The notes under the pieces are model-generated. The model saw only the letters and a program-made list of their open reading frames with translations. It was not told the origin of the DNA and searched no databases. A DNA stretch of 64,000 nucleotides, taken from the NCBI GenBank assembly GCA_051439605.1, contig JBFRWN010000142.1, positions 1 to 64,000 on the forward strand, read 5' to 3'. The translations under genes and the position numbers were made by a program. Shown here one piece after another: positions 11 through 15,018 of the stretch (positions within the stretch are counted from its first letter, which is position 1; each line of letters opens with the position of its first letter). The DNA is from Synechococcus sp. (lineage in GTDB: Bacteria; Cyanobacteriota; Cyanobacteriia; Thermostichales; PCC-7336).

Positions 11-38
11 AAAAAAGTGCTTCCTATGGGGAAGCACT
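11..38 (-). terminator. Rho-independent terminator of psbA
   Basis: Stem AGTGCTTCC (16-24) pairs with GGAAGCACT (30-38), followed on the minus strand by a U-tract (A run at 11-16), about 30 nt after the psbA stop. Confidence 0.8.
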
Positions 39-68: not shown

Positions 69-1169
69 TTAACCAATAGAAGGAGCCTCCATTGCAGTAG
101 AGATCGGAATGGCTTCGCCACTTGCCAGTCTCAAGGGGAAATGGTGCGCGTTAGGAGAGTGCATCACCTGCAATCCCATCGTTGCTCGATTAATCAGGTC
201 GGCTTCCGTACCGATGTATCGTCCGCTGCTATCCAAGATTGACCCGTTGAAATTAAACCCGTTCAAGTTGAAGGCCATAGTACCGATGCCCAGAGCGGCA
301 AACCAGATTCCGACAGTCGGTAAGGTCGCCAGCAACATGTGAATTGAGCGCTTGTTTTGGAATCCCAAACCCCGGAACACTATGCGACCGAGATACCCGT
401 AGTGGCCGGCCAACAGATTGTAGGTTTCTTCGTGCTGCCCAAAGCGGTAACCCTCATTTTCCGATACGAGATCGGAGGTTTCGCGGATCAATGACGAGGT
501 CACCAGCGAACCGTGCATGGCTGCTAGGAACGCTCCTCCGAATACACCGGCAACTCCAAGCATTGCAAACGGGTGCATCAGGATATTATGGTCGGCTTGA
601 AACGCCAGCATAAAATGAAACGTACCGGCAATCCCGAGAGGCAGTCCTTCCGAGAAAGACCCTTGGCCTATGGGATAGATCAGTAGAACTGCGATCGCCG
701 CTGCGACCGGTCCCGAGAAGGCCACAGCGATCCACGGGCGCATCCCCAGTCGGTAGGACAACTCCCACTGCCGTCCCAAATAGCAGACAATCCCAATGAG
801 AAAGTGCAGCACAATCAGCTGGTAGGGACCGCCGTTATAGAGCCACTCCTCCAGAGACGTAGCGGCCCAGACGGGATAGAAGTGCAATCCGATCGCCGCA
901 GAGGTGGGCACAACCGCCGCCGTGATGAGATTGTTGCCACCCATGAGGGAACCGATGACAGGTTCGCGAACCCCGTCCATGTCCACTGGCGGCGCACCGA
1001 TAAAGGCCAGGATAAAGCAAATGGAAGCGGCTAGCAGAGTGGGAATCATCAGCAGGCCGAACCAGCCAATGTAAAGCCGGTTTTCGGTACTGGTGACCCA
1101 CTTACAGTAACGATCCCACATGCTGCCGAGCTCAACTGGCCTGACTCGGCGTTTAGAGATAACAGTCAT
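69..1169 (-). CDS. psbA: Atypical ('rogue', group 2-like) photosystem II D1 protein
   Basis: D1 motifs [51 protein letters not shown]. In standard D1 numbering: D170E, E189D, E333S, D342R, H198A, S264G; Y161, H190, H215, H272, H332, H337 and A344 retained. Confidence 0.95.
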
Positions 1170-1336
1170 AAAGCAATCACCTCTCTCAGAAGGTCGATGA
1201 TGTTCGGTATCCAGACCGAGTGCTTAGACAAGGTTTCAAAATTCAAATCGCAGGAATTAGAAACCGATCCGTTCTAATTCCCCTCCAGCTCTCGAAGCCG
1301 TTAAACACATTGAGGCAACACAAACGATGCAAACAT

Positions 1337-1370
1337 TTAGAAAATTCGACAAGTTAGAAAATTCGACAAG
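1337..1370. repeat. Perfect 17-bp tandem direct repeat upstream of psbA
   Basis: TTAGAAAATTCGACAAG x2 (1337-1353, 1354-1370). Confidence 0.9.
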
Positions 1371-2009
1371 TCAAAATAGCAAACGCAACCTAAGCATTCG
1401 ATCCCTACAATTCATGGTAACAGAGGCAAACGTCAGCGATAACGACATCTAAATGTACGTTGACAAAAGAAACTTCTCATCGATTCGCGGATAGATAATG
1501 TAACCTAAATTGGTGGCTATACATAGTAGAATGAGAGGAGCATGAATTCATTTTAAATTGACTGCAATGGAGAACAGACCTGAAACGTAGGCCCGTCGGT
1601 CTAAGGTATTTAACGTTCGACAACAGGCAGATTTCTTCTGATTAAGAAATTTATCTTTTGATAAAGCATTTTCTCATTCAGATACCAAGAGAAAATCGTC
1701 TAGAAGTGATTTGCCTGAAATTAGGAATGCTTACGCGAATGATTCTACCTTGACAATCTATCAGTGAGTAATACAGGCAACTCGACTGGGTAAATCGAGA
1801 GAAAAAATATATCTATCACCGCACCAATTCCTGTCATAAATATTGATGTAGACCAGTGCGAGGATTGCTCTGCACCACCCCGAATGCCTAGCTTTTATAA
1901 AATTCAGTTGAAAGCAGCTCGCAAGCTGTGTACTTTAGGCAAACACTGACCTGGAGTTTGAGGCGTTCGCCCGGCGTGGCACCAGGCAATTTCCGTGCAA
2001 TACCGATGA

Positions 2010-4154
2010 TTGGGTCGCGCTATGGAATCGATCGCCCCTCTATTTCGACCTCGAACTGTGGTAGTCATTGGAGCCAGCCGCAATCCCGAGTCGATTCCCG
2101 GATGCCTGTTCGCCAACCTGCATCGATCCTTCTCGGGGGTTGTTTATCCCGTAAATCCAGCAGCTCCTCAAGTCCAGGGGGTTTCTGCCTACCCTTCAGT
2201 GTTGGAGATCTCCGGAGAGATCGACTTGGCCTTTATAGCGGTACCGGCTGACAAAGTCCTGACAGTGGCCCATCAGTGCATCGAGAAGGCGATTCCAGTC
2301 CTAGTCGTTGTCTCGGCTGGATTCTCAGAAACAGGCGAGCTCGGAGCGGCTCGGGAACGAGAGCTTGTGAGGTTGACCCGCTCTGCGGGAGTGCGCCTCC
2401 TCGGTCCCAACTGTGTTGGAGTCTTCAATACCGATCCGGCAGGACCGCTGAAGGGCATTTTTTCTCAGGTGGTAGCCATTCCAGGGAATGTCGCTCTGGG
2501 GGCGCAAAGCGGAGCCTTTGGGCTGGTGATTCCCGGAGCATTGGCGGAGCTGGGAGTAGGGATTTCCAGCTTCGTATCGCTGGGCAATAAGGCAGACATT
2601 ACCGAAAACGATCTGCTCGAGTACTGGCAAGGCGATCGGGCAACTGACTGCATTGCACTGTACCTGGAGTCCTTTCAGGAGCCTCGCAGCTTTCTTAAAA
2701 TCGCCCGCCAGGTGGCTCGCCACAGGCCCGTCGTTGTCTTGAAAGGGGGACGGACTGCTACAGGCAGGCGGGCAGCCAGCAGCCACACAGCAGCTCTGGC
2801 GAATCCGGTTACAGCTGCAGATGCATTGATGGCACAAACGGGGGTTGTACAAACCCACACCATTGAGGAGATGTACGAGGCTGCTGCGTTGCTCGCAACC
2901 CAGCCCGTTCCCTGCGGAGCGAGAGTGGCCGTCATTAGCAACGCGGGGGGACCCGCAGTGTTGTGTTCTGACGTTCTAGAGTCCGAGGGTTTGAGGGTTG
3001 TTGAGTTTTCCCCCAAACTGCGCACCCTGCTGCACCAGTTTCTGCCACCGAGAGCGAGACCTGACAATCCTCTCGATCTGGTTGCCTCGGTCGATCCGCA
3101 GCTCTATCAACAGTGTGTCGAGCGCATCCTGGCCAGTGGAGAAGTGGATGCGGCGATCGCCATTTTCGTTCCTCGGGTGTTTGGGACAGCACCCGATGTG
3201 GCTCGAGCTATTCGTACAGCAGCGACTGGCAGTTCGAAGCCGGTCTTGGCCGTCTTTGCCCAGACCGATCCTCCCCTGCAAGAGTTAAGCAGCATCGACC
3301 TCTGCGTTCCCTGCTATCGCTTTCCCGAGCCAGCGGCTGTGGCCTTAGCCCGAGCAGTCCGTTACGGTCAGTGGCGGACGCGTCCCGCAGGGCATATTCC
3401 CCAATTTAGCGACCTCCACCTCGATAAGGTTCTTCGATTGCTGACAAAGGTTCGGGAGCGTCTCGGCGATCGCGGCGGCTGGCTGGAGCCCATAGAAGTT
3501 CAGCAGGTTTTATCTGCAATCGGATTGCCGCAACCCAAGGCGGCTATAGCACTGACCGCTGACGAGGCGGTACAGGTTGCGAGGCAGTACGGCGGTCCGG
3601 TAGCCCTGAAGGTCATCTCTCCCTCAGCGATTCACAAATCGGATGTGGGGGGCGTCGCGATCGCCGTTGAAGGAGACCTTCCCGTGGAGGAAGCCTTTCG
3701 GCGAGTCACTGCTGCGGTTGCAGATGCACGGGGGGCACTTGTGCAGCAAATGGTCCCAGCGGGAGTGGAAGTTCTGATCGGCATCAATCGAGACCCTTTG
3801 TTTGGCCCGCTCGTGGCTTTTGGACTCGGCGGCACGCTGGTGGAACTATTGGAGTCCGTGGTAGTGCGGTTAGCTCCACTGACCGATCGCGATGCAGAAG
3901 AGGCGATCGCCGCAGTTCGTGGCAACAAACTGTTGGAGGGATATCGAGGAAGTCCGCCTGCTGATGTGGAAGCGGTGAAGGAGGCTTTGCTGCGGGTGTC
4001 GGCGATCGCGGAGGCAGTGCCGGAGCTGGCGGAAATGGATCTGAATCCGGTTAAGGTTTTGGCACCAGGTCAAGGAATTACGGTGGTTGACGCCCGCATC
4101 CGGCTGCAAGCGGTAGGCTTGAAAAGCTTGGCAGCCAAAGCAGGAAGAGGGTAG
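2010..4154 (+). CDS. Acetate/acyl-CoA ligase (ADP-forming), fused alpha-beta type
   Basis: CoA-binding N-terminus (VVVIGASR, YPVNP, SAGFSE, LLGPNCVG), SLGNKAD, catalytic-His motif AASSHTAALA, ATP-grasp C-terminus (HKSDVGGV, FGLGG, EMDLNP); no GNAT domain. Start TTG 2010 or ATG 2022. Confidence 0.88.
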   Translation: MGRAMESIAPLFRPRTVVVIGASRNPESIPGCLFANLHRSFSGVVYPVNPAAPQVQGVSAYPSVLEISGEIDLAFIAVPADKVLTVAHQCIEKAIPVLVVVSAGFSETGELGAARERELVRLTRSAGVRLLGPNCVGVFNTDPAGPLKGIFSQVVAIPGNVALGAQSGAFGLVIPGALAELGVGISSFVSLGNKADITENDLLEYWQGDRATDCIALYLESFQEPRSFLKIARQVARHRPVVVLKGGRTATGRRAASSHTAALANPVTAADALMAQTGVVQTHTIEEMYEAAALLATQPVPCGARVAVISNAGGPAVLCSDVLESEGLRVVEFSPKLRTLLHQFLPPRARPDNPLDLVASVDPQLYQQCVERILASGEVDAAIAIFVPRVFGTAPDVARAIRTAATGSSKPVLAVFAQTDPPLQELSSIDLCVPCYRFPEPAAVALARAVRYGQWRTRPAGHIPQFSDLHLDKVLRLLTKVRERLGDRGGWLEPIEVQQVLSAIGLPQPKAAIALTADEAVQVARQYGGPVALKVISPSAIHKSDVGGVAIAVEGDLPVEEAFRRVTAAVADARGALVQQMVPAGVEVLIGINRDPLFGPLVAFGLGGTLVELLESVVVRLAPLTDRDAEEAIAAVRGNKLLEGYRGSPPADVEAVKEALLRVSAIAEAVPELAEMDLNPVKVLAPGQGITVVDARIRLQAVGLKSLAAKAGRG

Positions 4155-4159
4155 GCGGT

Positions 4160-5848
4160 GTGAATCTCCAAGGACAAACTGTTTTAGTACTGGGGGGAGC
4201 GGGGCTGGTTGGAACCGCGGTTTGTCGCCGCCTGCTGAAAGAATCGCCAGCCCACCTCATCGTTGCAGCGGGCCATCAGGCCAGTGCGGAACGCGCGGTC
4301 AAGCTCTTGCGGACAGAGGCTTCACCGGGGGCTCGGATCGATGCCTGTTGGGGAAATATTTTTGTGCGGTGGGAGTACAAGGATTTCAGTTGGGGGGAAA
4401 TTCTGGCCGATCCCGGCAAGCGGCAGCAAGTCTTGAAAGATCTGCTCGATCCTCTGGAGAACAAGCGCAAGGACGAGATACTAGCCCAATCCACCCTGGC
4501 TCGCACGATCGCCCAATACCGACCCCACGCGATCGTCGATTGCATCAATACCGCTACCGCCTTTGCATACCAAGACGTCTACGAGAGCGCGCGCGAACTC
4601 CTGGCCTCCCTTGACGGCCCTCCCGAAACCTATCGGATGGCGGTGGAGCGGCACTTGGTCAAGATGTACACCCCCCAATTAGTCCGCCACATGCAGATTT
4701 TGTACGAGGCGCTGAGCGATGCCGACAATGACTGGCCGGGGGTTCAAGCCTACGTCAAGGTGGGAACGACGGGAACCGGCGGCATGGGATTGAATATCCC
4801 CTATACCCACGGCGAGGAGAAACCTTCGTCAGTGCTGCTCTCCAAAACTGCCGTTGCGGGAGCCCACAGCCTGCTGCTATTTCTCCTGGCTCGCACGCCG
4901 CCCGATCGCCCTGCCGTGAAAGAAATCAAGCCTGCGGCGGCGATTGGCTGGGCTGAAATCGGATACGGTCCCATTTCGCAAAAAGGACGCTCCGTTGCCC
5001 TCTACGACTGCCCGCCAGAATTGGCCTACGACCTTGCAGATGCAAGTGTTCCTACTGGCGAGTTTGGCATCGAGCTTGAGGGAAAGTCTTTGGAGAACGT
5101 CTACATCGACACTGGGGAAAACGGCCTCTATGCTCTGGCAGAGTTCTCCACACTGACGGCCCTGCGTCAGATGGAATTTATCACGGCGGAGGAGGTGGCC
5201 GAGAACGTGGTGTTGGAACTCAAAGGGGGCAATACGGGATACGACATGATTAGCGCCCTAGACCAAGCGGTACTGGGTCCCTCCTACCGAGCAGGTTGGT
5301 TGCGCGGCCAGGCGATCGCCCGCATGCAACACTTGGCTCGGGAGAAGGGGGCGCACAGCATAGCCTTCGAGGCCCTCGGTCCCCCGCGCCTCTCGAAACT
5401 ACTGTTCGAGGCGTACTTACTCCAGCAAGTGAGCCAAAACAGCATTCAACGGGTAAAGGGGATAGACCCCTTGCAGCTGGCGAGAGCCTGTTACGAGGAA
5501 CTGGTGACAGTAGGGGAGTTACGCACACAAGCGATCTCGGTGGGCATTCCCATTCTGCTTCCGGAGGGCGATCGCCTCCTGCGCGGTCCCACCATCAAAG
5601 CGGGCAAAGCAGAACAAGGCTGGATAGACTTGCGCCCCGAAAACATGCGTCTTTGGCAGGAGCGACTGGCGAAAATTTTAGAATTGGCGACTGCGGAACA
5701 ACAGGCGGATGGAGGAATGTATGCTTCCCGTTTCGATCGACTCTTTGTCGATGCCGCTACGGGTCAGATTCGAGACAGTTTTGACATCGGCACTGTTGTC
5801 GGATGGCTGTTCTCGGATGAAGAGCAGGGATTCCGTATGAAATCCTAG
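4160..5848 (+). CDS. Uncharacterised extended NAD(P)-binding Rossmann (SDR-like) protein
   Basis: N-terminal VLVLGGAGLVG dinucleotide-binding motif; 562 aa; begins 5 nt after the acyl-CoA ligase stop. Confidence 0.75.
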   Translation: MNLQGQTVLVLGGAGLVGTAVCRRLLKESPAHLIVAAGHQASAERAVKLLRTEASPGARIDACWGNIFVRWEYKDFSWGEILADPGKRQQVLKDLLDPLENKRKDEILAQSTLARTIAQYRPHAIVDCINTATAFAYQDVYESARELLASLDGPPETYRMAVERHLVKMYTPQLVRHMQILYEALSDADNDWPGVQAYVKVGTTGTGGMGLNIPYTHGEEKPSSVLLSKTAVAGAHSLLLFLLARTPPDRPAVKEIKPAAAIGWAEIGYGPISQKGRSVALYDCPPELAYDLADASVPTGEFGIELEGKSLENVYIDTGENGLYALAEFSTLTALRQMEFITAEEVAENVVLELKGGNTGYDMISALDQAVLGPSYRAGWLRGQAIARMQHLAREKGAHSIAFEALGPPRLSKLLFEAYLLQQVSQNSIQRVKGIDPLQLARACYEELVTVGELRTQAISVGIPILLPEGDRLLRGPTIKAGKAEQGWIDLRPENMRLWQERLAKILELATAEQQADGGMYASRFDRLFVDAATGQIRDSFDIGTVVGWLFSDEEQGFRMKS

Positions 5849-5878
5849 CTCATACGGCCTTGCACCCAGCCCTCTGAT

Positions 5879-6847
5879 TCAAGTCGATTGGGCGGCAGAG
5901 ATCTGAGAGACACTGACTCCTTGCTCTTCCTCTCGATCCGCTGACTGCCAGTAGGCATCGACACGTGCCTGAATCTGCGCTAGCTGCTCTTCCTGAACCG
6001 TTGGCTTGAACAAGTGGCGGAATCTGCGCTGCGGTTCCAGATACTCGCGCACTAGGTGCAGATGGCTGGGAATGTAGGTGTGCCTTACCTGACCCCGAAT
6101 CGCTTCTTTCAGCGGCCAAACCCCCGTTTCAATAGCCAGTCGGGCGATTTCGTCGCTCAGCGCTGGGTCAAACCCCCATCCAGTCGGGCAAACCGCTAAC
6201 GCAACAAATAACTTCGGCCCCCGAAAATCCATCGCTCGCCGCACTTTTTCAGCCAGGTCCACCGGCTCGTGGGAGGAAACAGTAGCAATGTAAGGGGGCT
6301 TCTGAGCTCGCCAGATCTCGAAAATATCCTTCTTGGTCTGCTGCGTCCCCTGCCGCGACGTTGCTGTTGCGGAGCCGAATGGCGAACCCGCCGAGAGTTG
6401 AAAGCCCGTATTGCCATAAGCTTCGTTATCGTAGCAGAGATACCAGAAGTTCAGCCCCCGATGGATGGCTGCCGAGGTGGAGGAGAGTCCCATGTCGTAG
6501 GTGGACCCCTCGCCAGCCAGGACCAGGACGTGCAGGGACTCTTCGGGAAGAATGCGTCCTTTGGCCAGCAGCACGTCTAGGGCATCCCGAATCCCCTGTG
6601 CCCCCGCCGAGGGACTGGCCATGGTGGTATAGAGCCAAGAGGAACGCAGTGGCGTAAAAGGGTAGATGGCCATCAGAGTCATGCAGCCAGCCGCATCCAC
6701 AATGACCACATTTTCTCCCAGGATCTTGTGCATCAACCGCAGCGTCGCCAACCCACCGCAACCGGCACAAAGTGGAGACCCCGGTGCAAGATACTCTTCC
6801 GTCGGTAGATCCTTCAAGCTCTTGTAAAATTCCCGCTTAACCTTCAC
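5879..6847 (-). CDS. porB: 2-oxoacid (pyruvate):ferredoxin oxidoreductase beta subunit, TPP-binding
   Basis: LCAGCG, AGC, TPP motif AGEGS...DNEAYGNTG, CPTGW; its GTG start overlaps the alpha-subunit stop (GTGA). Confidence 0.88.
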   Translation of the reverse strand: MKVKREFYKSLKDLPTEEYLAPGSPLCAGCGGLATLRLMHKILGENVVIVDAAGCMTLMAIYPFTPLRSSWLYTTMASPSAGAQGIRDALDVLLAKGRILPEESLHVLVLAGEGSTYDMGLSSTSAAIHRGLNFWYLCYDNEAYGNTGFQLSAGSPFGSATATSRQGTQQTKKDIFEIWRAQKPPYIATVSSHEPVDLAEKVRRAMDFRGPKLFVALAVCPTGWGFDPALSDEIARLAIETGVWPLKEAIRGQVRHTYIPSHLHLVREYLEPQRRFRHLFKPTVQEEQLAQIQARVDAYWQSADREEEQGVSVSQISAAQST

Positions 6848-8085
6848 GGTTGCTCTCCTTCCGGCCGCTTACCGGCCAGCACTAACTGCCGCTGTACCGT
6901 GTCGCGATCGCCCTCCGTAAACAGCAGCTCTGGCTGGCCGACATAGGACTCGTCTCCAACAGTCGCGAGCCGTTCCAGAACGAAATCGAATTCGGCAGGC
7001 GAGATATCTTTCCCCCCTAACCCACCAACAAAGGATCTCAACACTTTGGGGCGCTGTGGCGAGCTCGCCAGCACGGCGGCCACTTCGCGGTAGAGGATGC
7101 CCCCCAGACCCGGCGAGAGATTTTGGTCCAGCACGGCAACGGCTTGACGGCCCCCCAACACCTCAGCCAGTTCTGCCGCCGGCCAAGGGCGAATCGTGCG
7201 CAGCCGCACTAACCCCACCCGCTTGCCCTGCTCTCGCCAGCGACGGACCGCCGCCTTCCCTTTCGTGGAAAACGAGCCGGCCATGACCAGTAGAGTATCT
7301 GCATCGTCGGCATAGTAGGGGTCGATCGCGCCGTAGCGACGGCCGAACCGCTCGAAGAATTCATCAGCCACTTCTGCGTGCACCTGTGCCGCATTTTCCA
7401 CCGCCCGATGCAGCTGGTAGCGGAAATAGCTGTAGGTGGCTCCCTCCAACACGGCTACTCCCTGTGCCACAGGCTGAGAAGCGCGAAACACGGGGTGCTT
7501 TGGTTGAAAGGCAGGTAGGAAGTCTCGCACCTCGCTCTGGTCGGGTATGTCCACGGGTTCTCGAGTAAACGATAGATAGAACCCATCCAGATTCACCAAT
7601 ACGGGCACCCAAACCCTCGCGTCTTCGGCAATGCGGTAGGCCATCAGGATCGAGTCCAGGACTTCCTGACAGGTTTCTGCATGGATCTGGACGAAGCCGG
7701 TATCCCGTGCAGCCAGCACGTCATTGTGATCGGGACCGAGGGTGATTGGGGCCGACAGACCTCTGGAGACGTTCACCAGCACTAGAGGGACGTGCCAGCC
7801 CGCGATCGTGTAGAGGGCTTCCATGGCATACACCAGCCCCTGGCTGGAGGTGGCCGTGAAGGTGCGCACCCCCGTGGCCGCCGCCGCCCCAGCTGCTGTC
7901 ATCATGGAATGCTCGCTGTCGAGGGTGACGAACTTACCACTCAACGTCCCATCGGCAAACCACTCGGCCAGGGATTCGATAATCTCGGTTTGGGGGGTAA
8001 TCGGAAAGGCCGGGACGTAGTCGATGTCTGCCAGTCTGGCCCCCCAGGCAGCCGCCGCGTTACCGGTCAATAGTTTCCTCACCAT
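6844..8085 (-). CDS. porA: 2-oxoacid (pyruvate):ferredoxin oxidoreductase alpha subunit
   Basis: LTGNAAAAWG, FPITPQTEI, SEHS, TATSSQG, DGFYLS, GGLGGKD; ATG 8085 overlaps the gamma-delta stop. Confidence 0.88.
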   Translation of the reverse strand: MVRKLLTGNAAAAWGARLADIDYVPAFPITPQTEIIESLAEWFADGTLSGKFVTLDSEHSMMTAAGAAAATGVRTFTATSSQGLVYAMEALYTIAGWHVPLVLVNVSRGLSAPITLGPDHNDVLAARDTGFVQIHAETCQEVLDSILMAYRIAEDARVWVPVLVNLDGFYLSFTREPVDIPDQSEVRDFLPAFQPKHPVFRASQPVAQGVAVLEGATYSYFRYQLHRAVENAAQVHAEVADEFFERFGRRYGAIDPYYADDADTLLVMAGSFSTKGKAAVRRWREQGKRVGLVRLRTIRPWPAAELAEVLGGRQAVAVLDQNLSPGLGGILYREVAAVLASSPQRPKVLRSFVGGLGGKDISPAEFDFVLERLATVGDESYVGQPELLFTEGDRDTVQRQLVLAGKRPEGEQP

Positions 8086-8975
8086 GCCCGCACTTCCTTC
8101 TTCCTGGCGATCGCCCGCGCGGGACAGAGCGCCCAACAAATCATGCAACCCTTGCAGTGCTCGTAATCGATAATCGGGTAGCCCTCTTCGTCAAACGCGA
8201 TCGCCCCGTCCGGGCAGCGGGCGAAGCAAAGGCCGCAGCGGGTGCAGAGATCGCGATCGATCTCGGGACGCTCCACCCTCCAAGAGCCCGTTTGACGTAA
8301 CTCTGCATTGCCGGCGGTCAGAATGCTCGGCGTACTGGCCAGCAACCCTTCGTAATTGACAGGGGAGATTTTCGACCAATCGGGCACGTCTCGCGACTGC
8401 AGTTCGAGGCTGGGCAGCCCGTCGAACACCTCGCCAGCCAACGCTAAGTTTTTGGCGATCGCCTCCTGCGCAACGTGCAGGTCCTCCAGTTCTTCGCGCA
8501 CTGCATTGAGGAGGTTGTCTTGCGCGATCGCTCCCGTCAGCTTTGCCGCTGCCGCTGCCAAACCTGCACTGAGCGCTGACGCGGAACCCAGAATTTCCAG
8601 AGCGCGGTTGGTGATGTCCCAAGCGATCGCGCGCGGGCGAAGCGCGTATTTTTCCACCAGTGGGTGCGCAGACTCAGCATTCAGGAAGATCGCTCCGGCT
8701 AATTCCTGACCGGCCAGCACGCCTGCTCCCGGATCCTCCAGCAAGGTTTCATCGCCAACGACAATCAAATCCGGGCAAGCGATCGCCCCCCTTTCCAGAA
8801 TGGGCTCTTGAGCAATTCGCGTAAATGCAACGACTGCCGCGCCACGCCGCTCCGCACCGTACACAGGGGAGTCTTGAACCTGATAGCCCGCAAAGAAAGC
8901 AGCAGTACCAACAATGCGACTGGCAGTCTTGATACCGTGTCCCCCACGGCCGTGAAAACGAATTCGAATCATCAC
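8079..8975 (-). CDS. 2-oxoacid:ferredoxin oxidoreductase fused gamma-delta subunit with 2x[4Fe-4S] domain
   Basis: IRFHGRGGHG, YGAERRGA, then TGSWR...CTRCGLCFARCP and CKGCMICWALCP. Confidence 0.88.
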   Translation of the reverse strand: MMIRIRFHGRGGHGIKTASRIVGTAAFFAGYQVQDSPVYGAERRGAAVVAFTRIAQEPILERGAIACPDLIVVGDETLLEDPGAGVLAGQELAGAIFLNAESAHPLVEKYALRPRAIAWDITNRALEILGSASALSAGLAAAAAKLTGAIAQDNLLNAVREELEDLHVAQEAIAKNLALAGEVFDGLPSLELQSRDVPDWSKISPVNYEGLLASTPSILTAGNAELRQTGSWRVERPEIDRDLCTRCGLCFARCPDGAIAFDEEGYPIIDYEHCKGCMICWALCPARAIARKKEVRAW

Positions 8976-9086
8976 TTTCTCCCTGCGGGAGGGTAGACCG
9001 AGCTACCTGACCGAAGCGTATTTTGACTCCCCTATCACTATTGTAGGTTGCGACTTTGGTCGGTGGTTGCAGCGGGATCGAAGCCT

Positions 9087-9100
9087 TTGATGGCAAGCAA
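9087..9100. promoter_or_regulatory. FNR/Crp-like box in the divergent por/gdh intergenic region
   Basis: TTGAT-GGCA-AGCAA, one mismatch to TTGAT-N4-ATCAA. Confidence 0.35.
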
Positions 9101-9260
9101 AACGTTCTATTTTTTGTCAAACTCGATACATTTGGAGCGAATTCGACCAAGATAGGAATCAAGAGACTCAAGGGTCAAAATCGTACTTTGAGGCTCTCTG
9201 CAATCAGTGGGCAATAGCGCTTTCGAGACAAAACCCTCTGTCGAATTTGGAGCCTTCCAT

Positions 9261-10478
9261 ATGACGAGACTGAGAACAGATCCTGAGTTTTTTTTAACGC
9301 AAAAGCCATCTTTTAACGAACCGATGCAGACCGAAAGAGAGGTGGAGCGATCGCTGTCCGCAGACACCTCCTTCCGGTTTGCCGATGAGTTTGGACCGGC
9401 TAAGGTGAGCCACATTTACGAACCGCTCACGGGGTTAAAGGCTATTCTCGTCGTGGACAACGTAGCTTGCGGTCCATCCATTGGGGGCATCCGCATGGCA
9501 CCGGACGTCACCACCGAAGAAGTTTTTCGGCTGGCCCGAGCCATGACCCTGAAGAATGCTGCTGCCGGACTTCCCCACGGGGGTGGTAAGGCAGCTATCT
9601 TAGCCGATCCGAAGCTACCGCTATCCGACAAAGAACGGTTAATCCGTACTTTTGCCCGCGCCATTCGGGGCGTCACCGAGTACATTCCCGGCCCCAACAT
9701 GGGCACCGACGAGTGCTGCATGGCCTGGATTCAGGACGAGATTGGTCGCGCGGTCGGGCTGCCTCCAGAACTGGGTGGTATTCCCCTCGACGAGATTGGG
9801 GCAACGGGGTTCGGCCTCAGTATTTCGACAGAGGTCGCCAGCCGGTTTTGCGATCTCGACCTAAAAGGAGCCCGACTGGTGGTGCAGGGGTTCGGCTCGG
9901 TGGGCAAGCATGCTGCCCGCTTTTTACAGGAGAAAGGGGTTGTCCTGGTGGGAGCGGCAGATTCTCAAGGAACGCTGTTCGATCCCCACGGCATCGATCT
10001 CGATCGCCTGATATCGCTCAAACGTGCCGGTAAAAGCGTGGTTGACAGTCCGGCAGGGGAGAAACGCGATCGCGATGCAATTGTCGATATCGAATGCGAT
10101 ATTTGGCTACCGGCAGCCAGGCCCGATGTCATTTCTCAAGACAATGTGGCACGGTTGCAAACCAAGCTGGTGGTTCAGGGGGCAAACATTCCGTTTACGA
10201 CAGCGGCAGAGCGCATCTGTCACGAGAGGAACATTCTCATCGTCCCCGATTTCATTGCCAACGCTGGCGGCGTGATCTGTGCTGCTGTTGAGTATCGAGG
10301 GGGCACTCAAATCCTCGCCTTTCAGACCATTAAAGAGAAAGTTCGCACCAATACCGAACTCGTGTTGGAGAAAGCTGCTCGGACAGGCAAACTGCCCCGG
10401 GAGGTTGCTGTCGACCTTGCCGAACAGCGGGTCCGCACTGCAATGGGTTATCGCCACCCGATCTCTTGTGCCTTTTAA
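9261..10478 (+). CDS. Glu/Leu/Phe/Val dehydrogenase family protein
   Basis: GGIRM, LARAMTLK, GGGKA, ATGFG, VQGFGSVG, QGAN, PDFIANAGGV. Start uncertain (9207, 9261 or 9324). Confidence 0.88.
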   Translation: MTRLRTDPEFFLTQKPSFNEPMQTEREVERSLSADTSFRFADEFGPAKVSHIYEPLTGLKAILVVDNVACGPSIGGIRMAPDVTTEEVFRLARAMTLKNAAAGLPHGGGKAAILADPKLPLSDKERLIRTFARAIRGVTEYIPGPNMGTDECCMAWIQDEIGRAVGLPPELGGIPLDEIGATGFGLSISTEVASRFCDLDLKGARLVVQGFGSVGKHAARFLQEKGVVLVGAADSQGTLFDPHGIDLDRLISLKRAGKSVVDSPAGEKRDRDAIVDIECDIWLPAARPDVISQDNVARLQTKLVVQGANIPFTTAAERICHERNILIVPDFIANAGGVICAAVEYRGGTQILAFQTIKEKVRTNTELVLEKAARTGKLPREVAVDLAEQRVRTAMGYRHPISCAF

Positions 10479-13145: not shown

Positions 13146-13748
13146 ATGAAAAATAAACACGGCGGAAAGAGGTCCGGCGCAGGGCGGCCCAAGGGGACAG
13201 GCCGCAAATTCAAAGAGCCCACCGTGGTGAAACGGATCCCCCAAAGCCGCGTACCGGAAGTTGAAGCGCTGATTTCCCAGCCCCAAGAGCAGTTGGGCAT
13301 AAATTCCAATGGGCCGAACATCAACGTGGTGGATATTCGGGTGGCTGCCCCCTCTCCTGGCAAGCAGGAACGTCCCCTGTTTGCCTCCCGAGTACCTGCA
13401 GGCTTTCCTTCTCCAGCAGATGACTATATCGAAATGCATCTCGACCTGAACGAGTATCTCGTCGACCAGCCGGCAGCCACCTATCACGTCCAAGTCAGCG
13501 GGGATTCCATGGTGGGGGCCGGAATTATGGATGGGGACATCCTGGTAGTCAACCGGTCGCAAGAGGCTGCCCACAACGCAATCGTGGTGGCGATCGTCGA
13601 TGGCGAACCCACCGTTAAACGCCTCTACTGGCAGAATTCCGACATTGAACTGCAACCGGAAAACCCCGCCTATCCGGCGATTCGGATTTCCGCAGAACAA
13701 GATTTGCAAATTTGGGGGGTGGTCACAGGTGTCGTCCGCAAACTCTAA
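13146..13748 (+). CDS. umuD: UmuD/LexA-family S24 autopeptidase with basic N-terminal extension (UmuDAb-like)
   Basis: VPAGFPSPADDY cleavage site, GDSM (Ser), TVKRL (Lys); N-terminus HGGKRSGAGRP...EPTVVKRIPQS. Confidence 0.9.
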   Translation: MKNKHGGKRSGAGRPKGTGRKFKEPTVVKRIPQSRVPEVEALISQPQEQLGINSNGPNINVVDIRVAAPSPGKQERPLFASRVPAGFPSPADDYIEMHLDLNEYLVDQPAATYHVQVSGDSMVGAGIMDGDILVVNRSQEAAHNAIVVAIVDGEPTVKRLYWQNSDIELQPENPAYPAIRISAEQDLQIWGVVTGVVRKL

Positions 13749-15018
13749 TCTCCGTTCCCGCCGCATCGCACTGGTGGACTGCAATAACTTTTACTGCTCC
13801 TGCGAACGGGTGTTTCAACCTCAATGGGCGCATCGACCGATCGCCGTTCTCAGCAATAACGACGGATGTATCGTGGCCCGCTCCAACGAACTCAAGGACC
13901 TCAAAGTCCCGATGGGGGCCCCCTACTTCAAGTGGAAGACCTTTCTCAGTCGCCACAACGCGGTGGTGGTGTCCAGCAACTACAGCCTCTACGGGGATAT
14001 GTCCGCCAGAGTGATGAGTACGTTGGGTCGCTTCACCCCCGATATGGACATCTATTCCATCGACGAGGCTTGGTTGGATCTGACCCACTTCAATCCCGCG
14101 AGTCTAGATGCCTACGGTCGGGACATCGTGCTGACCGTGAGGCAATGGACGGGCATCCCCGTCTCAATCGGCATAGCCCCCACCCGAGTCTTGGCAAAAA
14201 TTGCCAACCGCATCGCCAAGAAGCGCAAGATCTCCGGTGGGGTGTTCAACTTGGGTGGGGCCGAGCATCTAGAAGACGTTTTGGAAACGATCGCGGTGGA
14301 GGATATCTGGGGCATCGGCCGTCGCTGGGGTCGGCGCTTGCGCAGCATCGGAATCCAGTCGGCGCAAGAGTTACGGGCAGCCGATCTCGAGATGATCCGC
14401 AAGCGTTTTGGGGTGGTGATGCAGCGGATTGTGTTTGAGCTGCGAGGAATTAACTGCATCGAAGCGGAGGCGTTTGCTCCCAAACAGCAAATAATGTGTT
14501 CCCGTTCCTTCGGCCAGCGGGTGACGTCCCTGGAACACCTACGGCAGTCGGTCACGATGCATGTCAGCCGTGCGGCTGAGAAGCTGCGCTCCCAAAACTC
14601 CATTTGCGGATTGGCCCAGGTGTTTATTCGCACGGGACTGTTCAATCCACAAGAACCTACTTACAGCCAGCACGCCATCGTTCAATTCCCCGTTCCTACC
14701 TCAGATACCCGTTCTATAGCTAGTGGAGCGTTGCAGGCTCTGGATTCCATCTATCGCGAGGGATTCCGCTATGCCAAGGCAGGAGTGATTCTGATGGATC
14801 TTTCCTCATCCGAGGGGGTGCAATCGGATTTATTTCACCCTGCCGACAGCAAGCGATCGCAGGTGTTGATGCAAACGGTCGACTCCATCAATCAGAGAAT
14901 GGGACGGCGATCGGTGTTCTTTGGAGGGGAGGGGACGCAGCGGGTCTGGTTGATGAAGCGGGGGATGACGACCAAAGCCTACACCACCCGTTGGTCTGAA
15001 TTGCTGGTGGTACGGTGA
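13729..15018 (+). CDS. umuC: Y-family translesion DNA polymerase V subunit
   Basis: ALVDCNNFYCSCE, VLSNNDGC, SSNYSLYGDMS, YSIDE, IWGIG, SRSFG and C-terminal YTTRW; likely GTG start at 13729 overlapping the umuD end. Confidence 0.92.
   Translation: MSSANSNLRSRRIALVDCNNFYCSCERVFQPQWAHRPIAVLSNNDGCIVARSNELKDLKVPMGAPYFKWKTFLSRHNAVVVSSNYSLYGDMSARVMSTLGRFTPDMDIYSIDEAWLDLTHFNPASLDAYGRDIVLTVRQWTGIPVSIGIAPTRVLAKIANRIAKKRKISGGVFNLGGAEHLEDVLETIAVEDIWGIGRRWGRRLRSIGIQSAQELRAADLEMIRKRFGVVMQRIVFELRGINCIEAEAFAPKQQIMCSRSFGQRVTSLEHLRQSVTMHVSRAAEKLRSQNSICGLAQVFIRTGLFNPQEPTYSQHAIVQFPVPTSDTRSIASGALQALDSIYREGFRYAKAGVILMDLSSSEGVQSDLFHPADSKRSQVLMQTVDSINQRMGRRSVFFGGEGTQRVWLMKRGMTTKAYTTRWSELLVVR

What the first reader, a model, noticed from the sequence alone, without database searches (positions are those of the whole stretch)
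564..566. D1 His198, the axial ligand of the P_D1 chlorophyll, is naturally replaced by Ala
Seen: [11 protein letters not shown] (codon GCA at 566-564) instead of canonical NILMHPFHMLG. His to Ala(GCA) needs three base changes, so a single sequencing error is unlikely. Known: H198 ligates P_D1 and, to my knowledge, is kept in nearly all D1 forms including most rogue and ChlF types. Inference: the primary-donor properties are altered, or this D1 has a non-photochemical or placeholder role.
Basis: partly seen in the sequence, partly recalled or inferred. Interest (0 to 1): 0.75.

Follow-up and report, generated by a model that had tools for sequence, protein, structure and literature searches.

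The report
Rogue D1 lacking its chlorophyll histidine

Summary
Confirmed. Window 1169-69 (-) encodes an intact 366-aa D1; codon GCA (566-564) puts Ala at D1-198. Contigs from two other studies bridge the codon unchanged, and an 89%-identical protein (P0121) also has Ala. It is not a sequencing error.

The protein is a Group 2 ('rogue'/'sentinel') D1: D170E, E189D, E333S, D342R and the insertion after H252. It is under purifying selection (dN/dS about 0.14). The Ala pair nests among Gln198 orthologues (codon CAA, two changes from GCA), so His to Gln to Ala is likely. Cardona 2015 already lists H198Q (PCC 7336) and H198S in Group 2. The lab H198A mutant is reported to separate charge, probably with a water ligand, and to keep 50-70% of O2 evolution.

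Best reading: a placeholder D1 without a Mn cluster, in which a lower-potential P_D1 costs nothing. I found no report of natural Ala198 in the papers searched; it was 1 of 340 listed clusters. The genome also has a His198 Group 2 paralogue and standard D1 genes, and no nifH/nifD above cut-off. The scan had noted a Group 2 D1 on other DNA, not this substitution.

The parts
69..1169 (-). psbA gene for a Group 2 (rogue/sentinel) D1, 366 aa, intact
   Evidence: ORF; TIGR01151 617.6 bits (cut-off 596.05); residue table; trees
564..566 (-). Codon GCA = Ala at D1-198 (residue 202), normally the His axial ligand of P_D1
   Evidence: bridged unchanged by contigs of X4 and X7
16..38 (-). Intrinsic-terminator-like hairpin with T-run just downstream of the gene
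   Evidence: Consensus match only: 2 found against a shuffle mean of 2.2
1177..1186 (-). Purine-rich, Shine-Dalgarno-like stretch (GAGAGAGGTG) a few bases before the ATG
   Evidence: read from the sequence; not tested

Best explanation
The gene encodes a conserved Group 2 ('rogue') D1 with Ala in place of His198 that lacks several manganese-cluster ligands; it likely fills photosystem II as a non-water-splitting placeholder, with the P_D1 chlorophyll predicted to stay bound through a water molecule. Shown here: the substitution; the Mn-ligand changes (D170E, E189D, E333S, D342R); retention of TyrZ161, H190, H118, T179, Y126, Q130, H215, H252 and H272; purifying selection; and nesting of the Ala pair among Gln198 orthologues. 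Inferred: (1) the order His to Gln to Ala; (2) a water ligand to the P_D1 Mg, a stabilised (lower-potential) P+ and faster recombination, as reported for the lab mutant; (3) this is tolerated because a D1 without a Mn cluster need not keep P680+ strongly oxidising, so the site is relaxed while the rest of the protein is not; (4) use in darkness or low oxygen, as reported for other Group 2 D1. Nitrogenase protection is unlikely here, as no nifH or nifD above cut-off was found in the genome.
For: Residue table matches the Group 2 features in PMC4408414 (passages). Tree: the Ala pair (SH-aLRT 97-98) lies inside a clade of Gln198 proteins (96; 91 with residues 196-198 masked), and one Gln protein branches first (support 89). 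Codons CAA against GCA. dN 0.113, dS 0.80 against the G002 orthologue. Four of the 5 differences in the X4 strain contig are synonymous. Three different small or polar residues (A, Q, S) occupy the site in one order, and one genome (G010) has His within the Ser clade, which fits a tolerant site. The helix around 198 is otherwise canonical. Lab H198A: probable water ligand, higher radical-pair yield, faster recombination, 50-70% O2 evolution (PMC7443915 section 4, citing Diner 2001, which I did not read). H198Q PSII still forms P+ with a 3-nm shift (bioRxiv 10.1101/2024.02.15.580457, part 1 of 2 read).
Against: Most Group 2 proteins keep His198 (116 of 122) although they too lack the Mn ligands, and so does this genome's second Group 2 paralogue. 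Loss of the cluster alone therefore does not free the site. Gln and Ser are each stable within their clades, which could mean selection rather than drift. Nothing here shows that the protein is made, assembled, or binds P_D1. Lab data come from a standard-D1 background. Deleting the Group 2 gene in Cyanothece had only small effects and its role remains unsettled (PMC9640542 passages).
Confidence: 0.65

Rival explanations
1. Selected tuning: replacing His198 deliberately lowers the P680 potential and speeds harmless charge recombination, making a safer idle reaction centre for dark-to-light or anoxic-to-oxic shifts in mats and sediments.
For: Non-His residues are fixed in two lineages of one order (Gln/Ala in family f1; Ser in 12 of 13 family-f2 genomes read) and are rare elsewhere. 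The lab mutant shows a stabilised P+ and much faster recombination.
Against: A single origin of the two losses is not rejected (p-AU 0.114), so convergence is not shown. G010 appears to have regained His. No site-level selection test was run.
Confidence: 0.2
2. P_D1 is absent or changed, and this paralogue is a non-photochemical scaffold or an enzyme-like complex (in the manner of ChlF), while the His198 paralogue on C121 does the ordinary Group 2 job.
For: The genome holds two Group 2 genes about 69% identical, one with and one without His198; G001 has the same pair. An unidentified enzymatic role for Group 2 complexes has been suggested (PMC9640542).
Against: All other cofactor residues checked are kept (TyrZ, H190, T179, H118, H215, H272). 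Lab H198A and H198Q centres still form P+. The Group 1/ChlF signature residues are absent.
Confidence: 0.1
3. Decaying redundant paralogue or assembly error.
For: A second Group 2 gene and standard D1 genes are present; the genome is from a metagenome.
Against: Intact frame; dN/dS about 0.14; the same Ala in an 89%-identical protein and in contigs of two other studies.
Confidence: 0.03

Closest known systems
Group 2 D1 of Synechococcus sp. PCC 7336 (P0010, WP_017328392.1), H198Q; noted in Cardona et al. 2015, PMC4408414
   Same: 84% identical; same clade; same Mn-ligand losses (E170, D189, R342); His198 also lost
   Different: Gln rather than Ala at 198 (Ala has no side chain that could bind Mg or a Mg-bound water; established chemistry); Ala rather than Ser at 333
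Group 2 D1 of hot-spring Synechococcus JA-3-3Ab / JA-2-3B'a (Thermostichus), H198S; PMC4408414
   Same: Group 2, same order, His198 replaced by a small residue
   Different: Separate clade, about 75% identical, with a remodelled motif HPxSW (197 and 199 also changed); one origin or two is unresolved (p-AU 0.114)
Sentinel/rogue D1 PsbA4 of Cyanothece ATCC 51142 (Wegener 2015 as cited in PMC4408414 and PMC9640542; original not held)
   Same: Group 2 features; proposed inactive placeholder used in the dark
   Different: By PMC4408414 the Group 2 proteins outside the three named strains keep His198; that host fixes nitrogen, whereas this genome has no nifH/nifD above cut-off
Laboratory D1-H198A mutant of Synechocystis PCC 6803 (Diner 2001, as summarised in PMC7443915)
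   Same: Identical substitution at the same site
   Different: Made in a standard water-splitting D1; this is a natural allele in a D1 lacking Mn ligands

Membership tests
Group 2 (rogue) D1 | D170 mostly E; E189 mostly D | tested here: met
   E170, D189; features from PMC4408414
Group 2 (rogue) D1 | E333 absent (A, S or G); R334 mostly P; N335 kept | tested here: met
   H332-S-P-N-A-H337
Group 2 (rogue) D1 | D342 replaced by a non-ligand | tested here: met
   R342; Arg is not among the residues listed in the passage read, but is shared by the whole Gln/Ala clade
Group 2 (rogue) D1 | H252 kept, with a one-residue insertion at about G253 | tested here: met
   GHYGYLGR against AH-GYFGR; Tyr is among the listed inserts
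Group 2 (rogue) D1 | Q, L or M at 130; altered QB site | tested here: met
   Q130, L255, G264, I271
Group 2 (rogue) D1 | Phylogenetic placement apart from Groups 3 and 4 | tested here: met
   Falls with the atypical D1, SH-aLRT 99 against the three-row standard-type outgroup, and beside P0010; no Group 1 row was in the tree
Group 2 (rogue) D1 | Expressed in the dark or at low O2; PSII with little or no O2 evolution | not testable with these tools
   RNA-library contigs cover the gene but also upstream DNA, so transcription is not shown
Group 1 D1 (ChlF, super-rogue) | D170 A/S, H252 Q/R, W256, N335 P/H/Q, E333 D/E | tested here: not met
   E170, H252, G256, N335, S333
Standard water-splitting D1 (Groups 3 and 4) | Full Mn4CaO5 ligand set D170, E189, H332, E333, D342, A344, and His198 | tested here: not met
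   4 of 6 ligands changed, plus A198

The most novel reading that the evidence does not exclude
Early-branching cyanobacteria of this order have rewired the primary donor of their rogue D1, possibly twice (His to Ser; His to Gln to Ala). The result is a low-potential or P_D1-altered photosystem II subtype with a job of its own, such as safe charge dissipation or oxidation of a low-potential donor in anoxic sediment, kept beside a second His-bearing rogue D1 in the same cell. The His/Ala paralogue pair would be a natural experiment on what rogue D1 does.
Probability: 0.2. Interest if true: 0.65.

Novelty: new variant of a known kind. Interest (0 to 1): 0.3.

Why it matters
The function of Group 2 D1 is still unsettled. 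A natural allele matching a well-studied lab mutant, fixed in a conserved gene and sitting beside a His198 paralogue in an apparently non-nitrogen-fixing genome, gives a ready test pair for whether rogue photosystem II needs photochemistry at all. The surprise is modest: loss of this ligand in the same clade has been in print since 2015, and the lab mutant is functional.

Tried and rejected
Sequencing or assembly error: rejected. Pseudogene: rejected. ChlF/Group 1: rejected on residues.

Wider spread of Ala198: an exact degenerate pattern for Ala at 198 in metagenome contigs gave 7 hits, 0 of them D1. A pattern for any 198 codon not starting with C in genome contigs gave 16 hits, 6 of them D1, all Ser. 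Region-focused protein searches added no Ala cluster among the top 120 rows each (of 2289 and 588 hits); unlisted hits were not read.

One origin or two for His loss: AU test inconclusive (p 0.114, quick LG+G4 tree, 43 rows).

Conserved gene neighbourhood: none with G001 or G002. The neighbouring oxidoreductase alpha subunit was not found with this query in 4 of 4 family relatives, so no functional link to the D1 gene is claimed.

Nitrogenase link: nifD and nifH above cut-off in 2 of 5 genomes (G001, G007), not in G000, G002 or G003. Sulfide:quinone reductase: not identified among 8 of 12 flavoprotein matches scanned, one of which had no family at the threshold used; this does not show absence.

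D2-His197 could not be checked, as psbD is present only as contig-end fragments. No sigma-70 promoter match. No structure model was obtained.

Sheridan 2020, Wegener 2015, Saito 2012 and Schlodder 2008 were not held. Sheridan 2020 or the supplements of later D1 surveys, which I did not read, could already list an Ala198.

Full report
Observation. The minus strand of the window, 1169-69, is an intact 366-codon psbA (TIGR01151 617.6 bits against a cut-off of 596.05). Residue 202 is Ala, codon GCA at 566-564, and it aligns without gaps to His198 of solved D1 chains and of the genome's standard D1. Contigs of four runs were laid on 1-2000. X4 (study P2) has a contig over 338-739 whose 5 differences are all listed and all outside the codon; four are synonymous and one is Ile to Val. 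The RNA-library run X7 (study P3) has a contig over 485-679 with 2 differences, both outside the codon. X2 spans it but one of its 7 differences is not shown, and the X8 pieces shown do not bridge it. The second member of the protein's cluster, P0121 (324/366 identical), also has HPFAMLG. The best-holding runs are marine sediment metagenomes.

What the protein is. In standard numbering it has E170, D189, H332, S333, H337, R342 and A344 on the donor side. It has Q130, L255, G264, I271 and a Tyr inserted after H252 on the acceptor side. It keeps Y161, H190, H118, T179, Y126, H215 and H272. These match the Group 2 ('rogue') features and fail the Group 1 (ChlF) features given in PMC4408414 (passages read). 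The genome has a second Group 2 gene on C121 that keeps His198 (about 69% identical), two complete standard D1 genes, and further psbA fragments at contig ends. The Ala198 protein is therefore not the cell's working water-splitting D1.

Distribution and history. The closest hits are P0009 and P0010 (Synechococcus sp. PCC 7336), both 84% identical and both Gln198. Orthologues in same-genus genomes G001 and G002 have Gln, codon CAA; for G003 (85% complete) I read only a His-bearing paralogue fragment. In the other sampled family of the order (f2), 12 of the 13 Group 2 genes read have Ser (AGT/AGC, motif HPxSW) and one (G010) has His. Among 340 cluster representatives listed by three protein searches (top 120 rows each, of 3599, 2289 and 588 hits), 334 have His, 3 Ser, 2 Gln and 1 Ala; among the 122 classed as Group 2, 116 have His. 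Pattern scans found no other Ala198 D1: 0 of 7 metagenome hits were D1, and the 6 D1 among 16 genome hits were all Ser. These exact patterns miss motif variants. In a 152-row quick tree the two Ala proteins are sisters (SH-aLRT 97) inside a Gln clade (96), with one Gln protein branching first (89). A 43-row tree with residues 196-198 masked gives the same shape (98, 91, 89). The likely path is His to Gln to Ala, and CAA to GCA is two base changes rather than three. The Ser clade is separate in both trees, but a single origin is not rejected (p-AU 0.114). The gene is under purifying selection: dN 0.113 and dS 0.80 against G002, with synonymous sites saturated against G001.

Literature. PMC4408414 states that H198 is conserved in all D1 except Group 2 sequences of Synechococcus JA-2-3B'a and JA-3-3Ab (Ser) and PCC 7336 (Gln), calls these secondary derived changes, and notes lab H198A and H198K mutants. 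PMC7443915 section 4 (passages) summarises H198A: probably a water ligand on Mg, a stabilised P+, higher primary radical-pair yield, much faster recombination, and O2 evolution 50-70% of wild type. I did not read the primary papers. bioRxiv 10.1101/2024.02.15.580457 (part 1 of 2) shows H198Q PSII forming P+ with a 3-nm blue shift. PMC9640542 (passages) describes Group 2 D1 as a dark-expressed placeholder and finds only small effects of deleting it. PMC11304991 (passages) reports Group 2 psbA in Thermostichales without mentioning H198; PMC12096807 (passages) had nothing on the site. Six searches returned no paper naming a natural Ala198, but Sheridan 2020 was not held and no supplements were read.

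Mechanism. Shown: the substitution, the lost Mn ligands, the kept redox residues, conservation of the gene, and nesting among Gln orthologues. Inferred: a PSII built on this D1 would have no Mn4CaO5 cluster, would keep P_D1 through a water ligand, and would have a somewhat lower-potential P+ with faster recombination. That costs a water-splitting centre 30-50% of its activity but should cost a placeholder little, so the site could drift (0.65). Against this, most Group 2 proteins keep His, so selected tuning (0.2) or a non-photochemical role for this paralogue (0.1) remain open. Protection of nitrogenase is unlikely: nifD and nifH above cut-off were found in 2 of 5 genomes, not in G000 (99.98% complete). 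The adjacent genes (an acetate-CoA-ligase-like gene and an archaeal-type 2-oxoacid:ferredoxin oxidoreductase cluster) suggest a dark, anoxic metabolism, but the neighbourhood is not conserved and no link is claimed. Transcription is not shown, as the RNA-library contigs also cover upstream DNA. D2-His197 could not be checked, and no structure model was obtained.

Verdict. A real, rare, apparently unreported natural allele, but a variant of a published phenomenon in the same clade, with a known and fairly mild effect in the lab mutant. Interest 0.3.

Noticed in passing
G000:C121:15491-16588 (L062:7492-8589): Second Group 2 D1 in the same genome, keeping His198 (HPLHMAG), on a long branch and next to a pentapeptide-repeat gene; orthologues in G001 (same neighbour) and G003. 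Two rogue D1 paralogues in a genome with no nifH/nifD above cut-off.
   Followed up: partly
L013 (G010:C2:111521-112561): A Group 2 D1 in the Ser198 clade has His198 (HPLHQLAV). Against G016, 46 of 62 base differences fall in one 100-codon patch around this site, which suggests recombination brought His back.
   Followed up: partly
window 2010-10478: Cluster beside the D1 gene: acetate/acyl-CoA-ligase-like gene, unknown 562-aa ORF, archaeal-type 2-oxoacid:ferredoxin oxidoreductase (gamma-delta fusion, alpha, beta) and a Glu/Leu/Phe/Val-type dehydrogenase. The alpha subunit was not found with this query in 4 of 4 family relatives; possibly an acquired fermentation cluster.
   Followed up: partly
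window 1338-1371: 17-nt tandem duplication upstream of psbA; one X4 contig lacks 17 bases here, so copy number seems to vary between strains.
   Followed up: no
P0088, P0096, P0102, P0110, P0113: Some Group 2 D1 have Asn in place of His195, and P0042 has changes at H272 and H332; further site losses within Group 2.
   Followed up: no
window 13146-15018: umuD-umuC-like error-prone polymerase pair.
   Followed up: no
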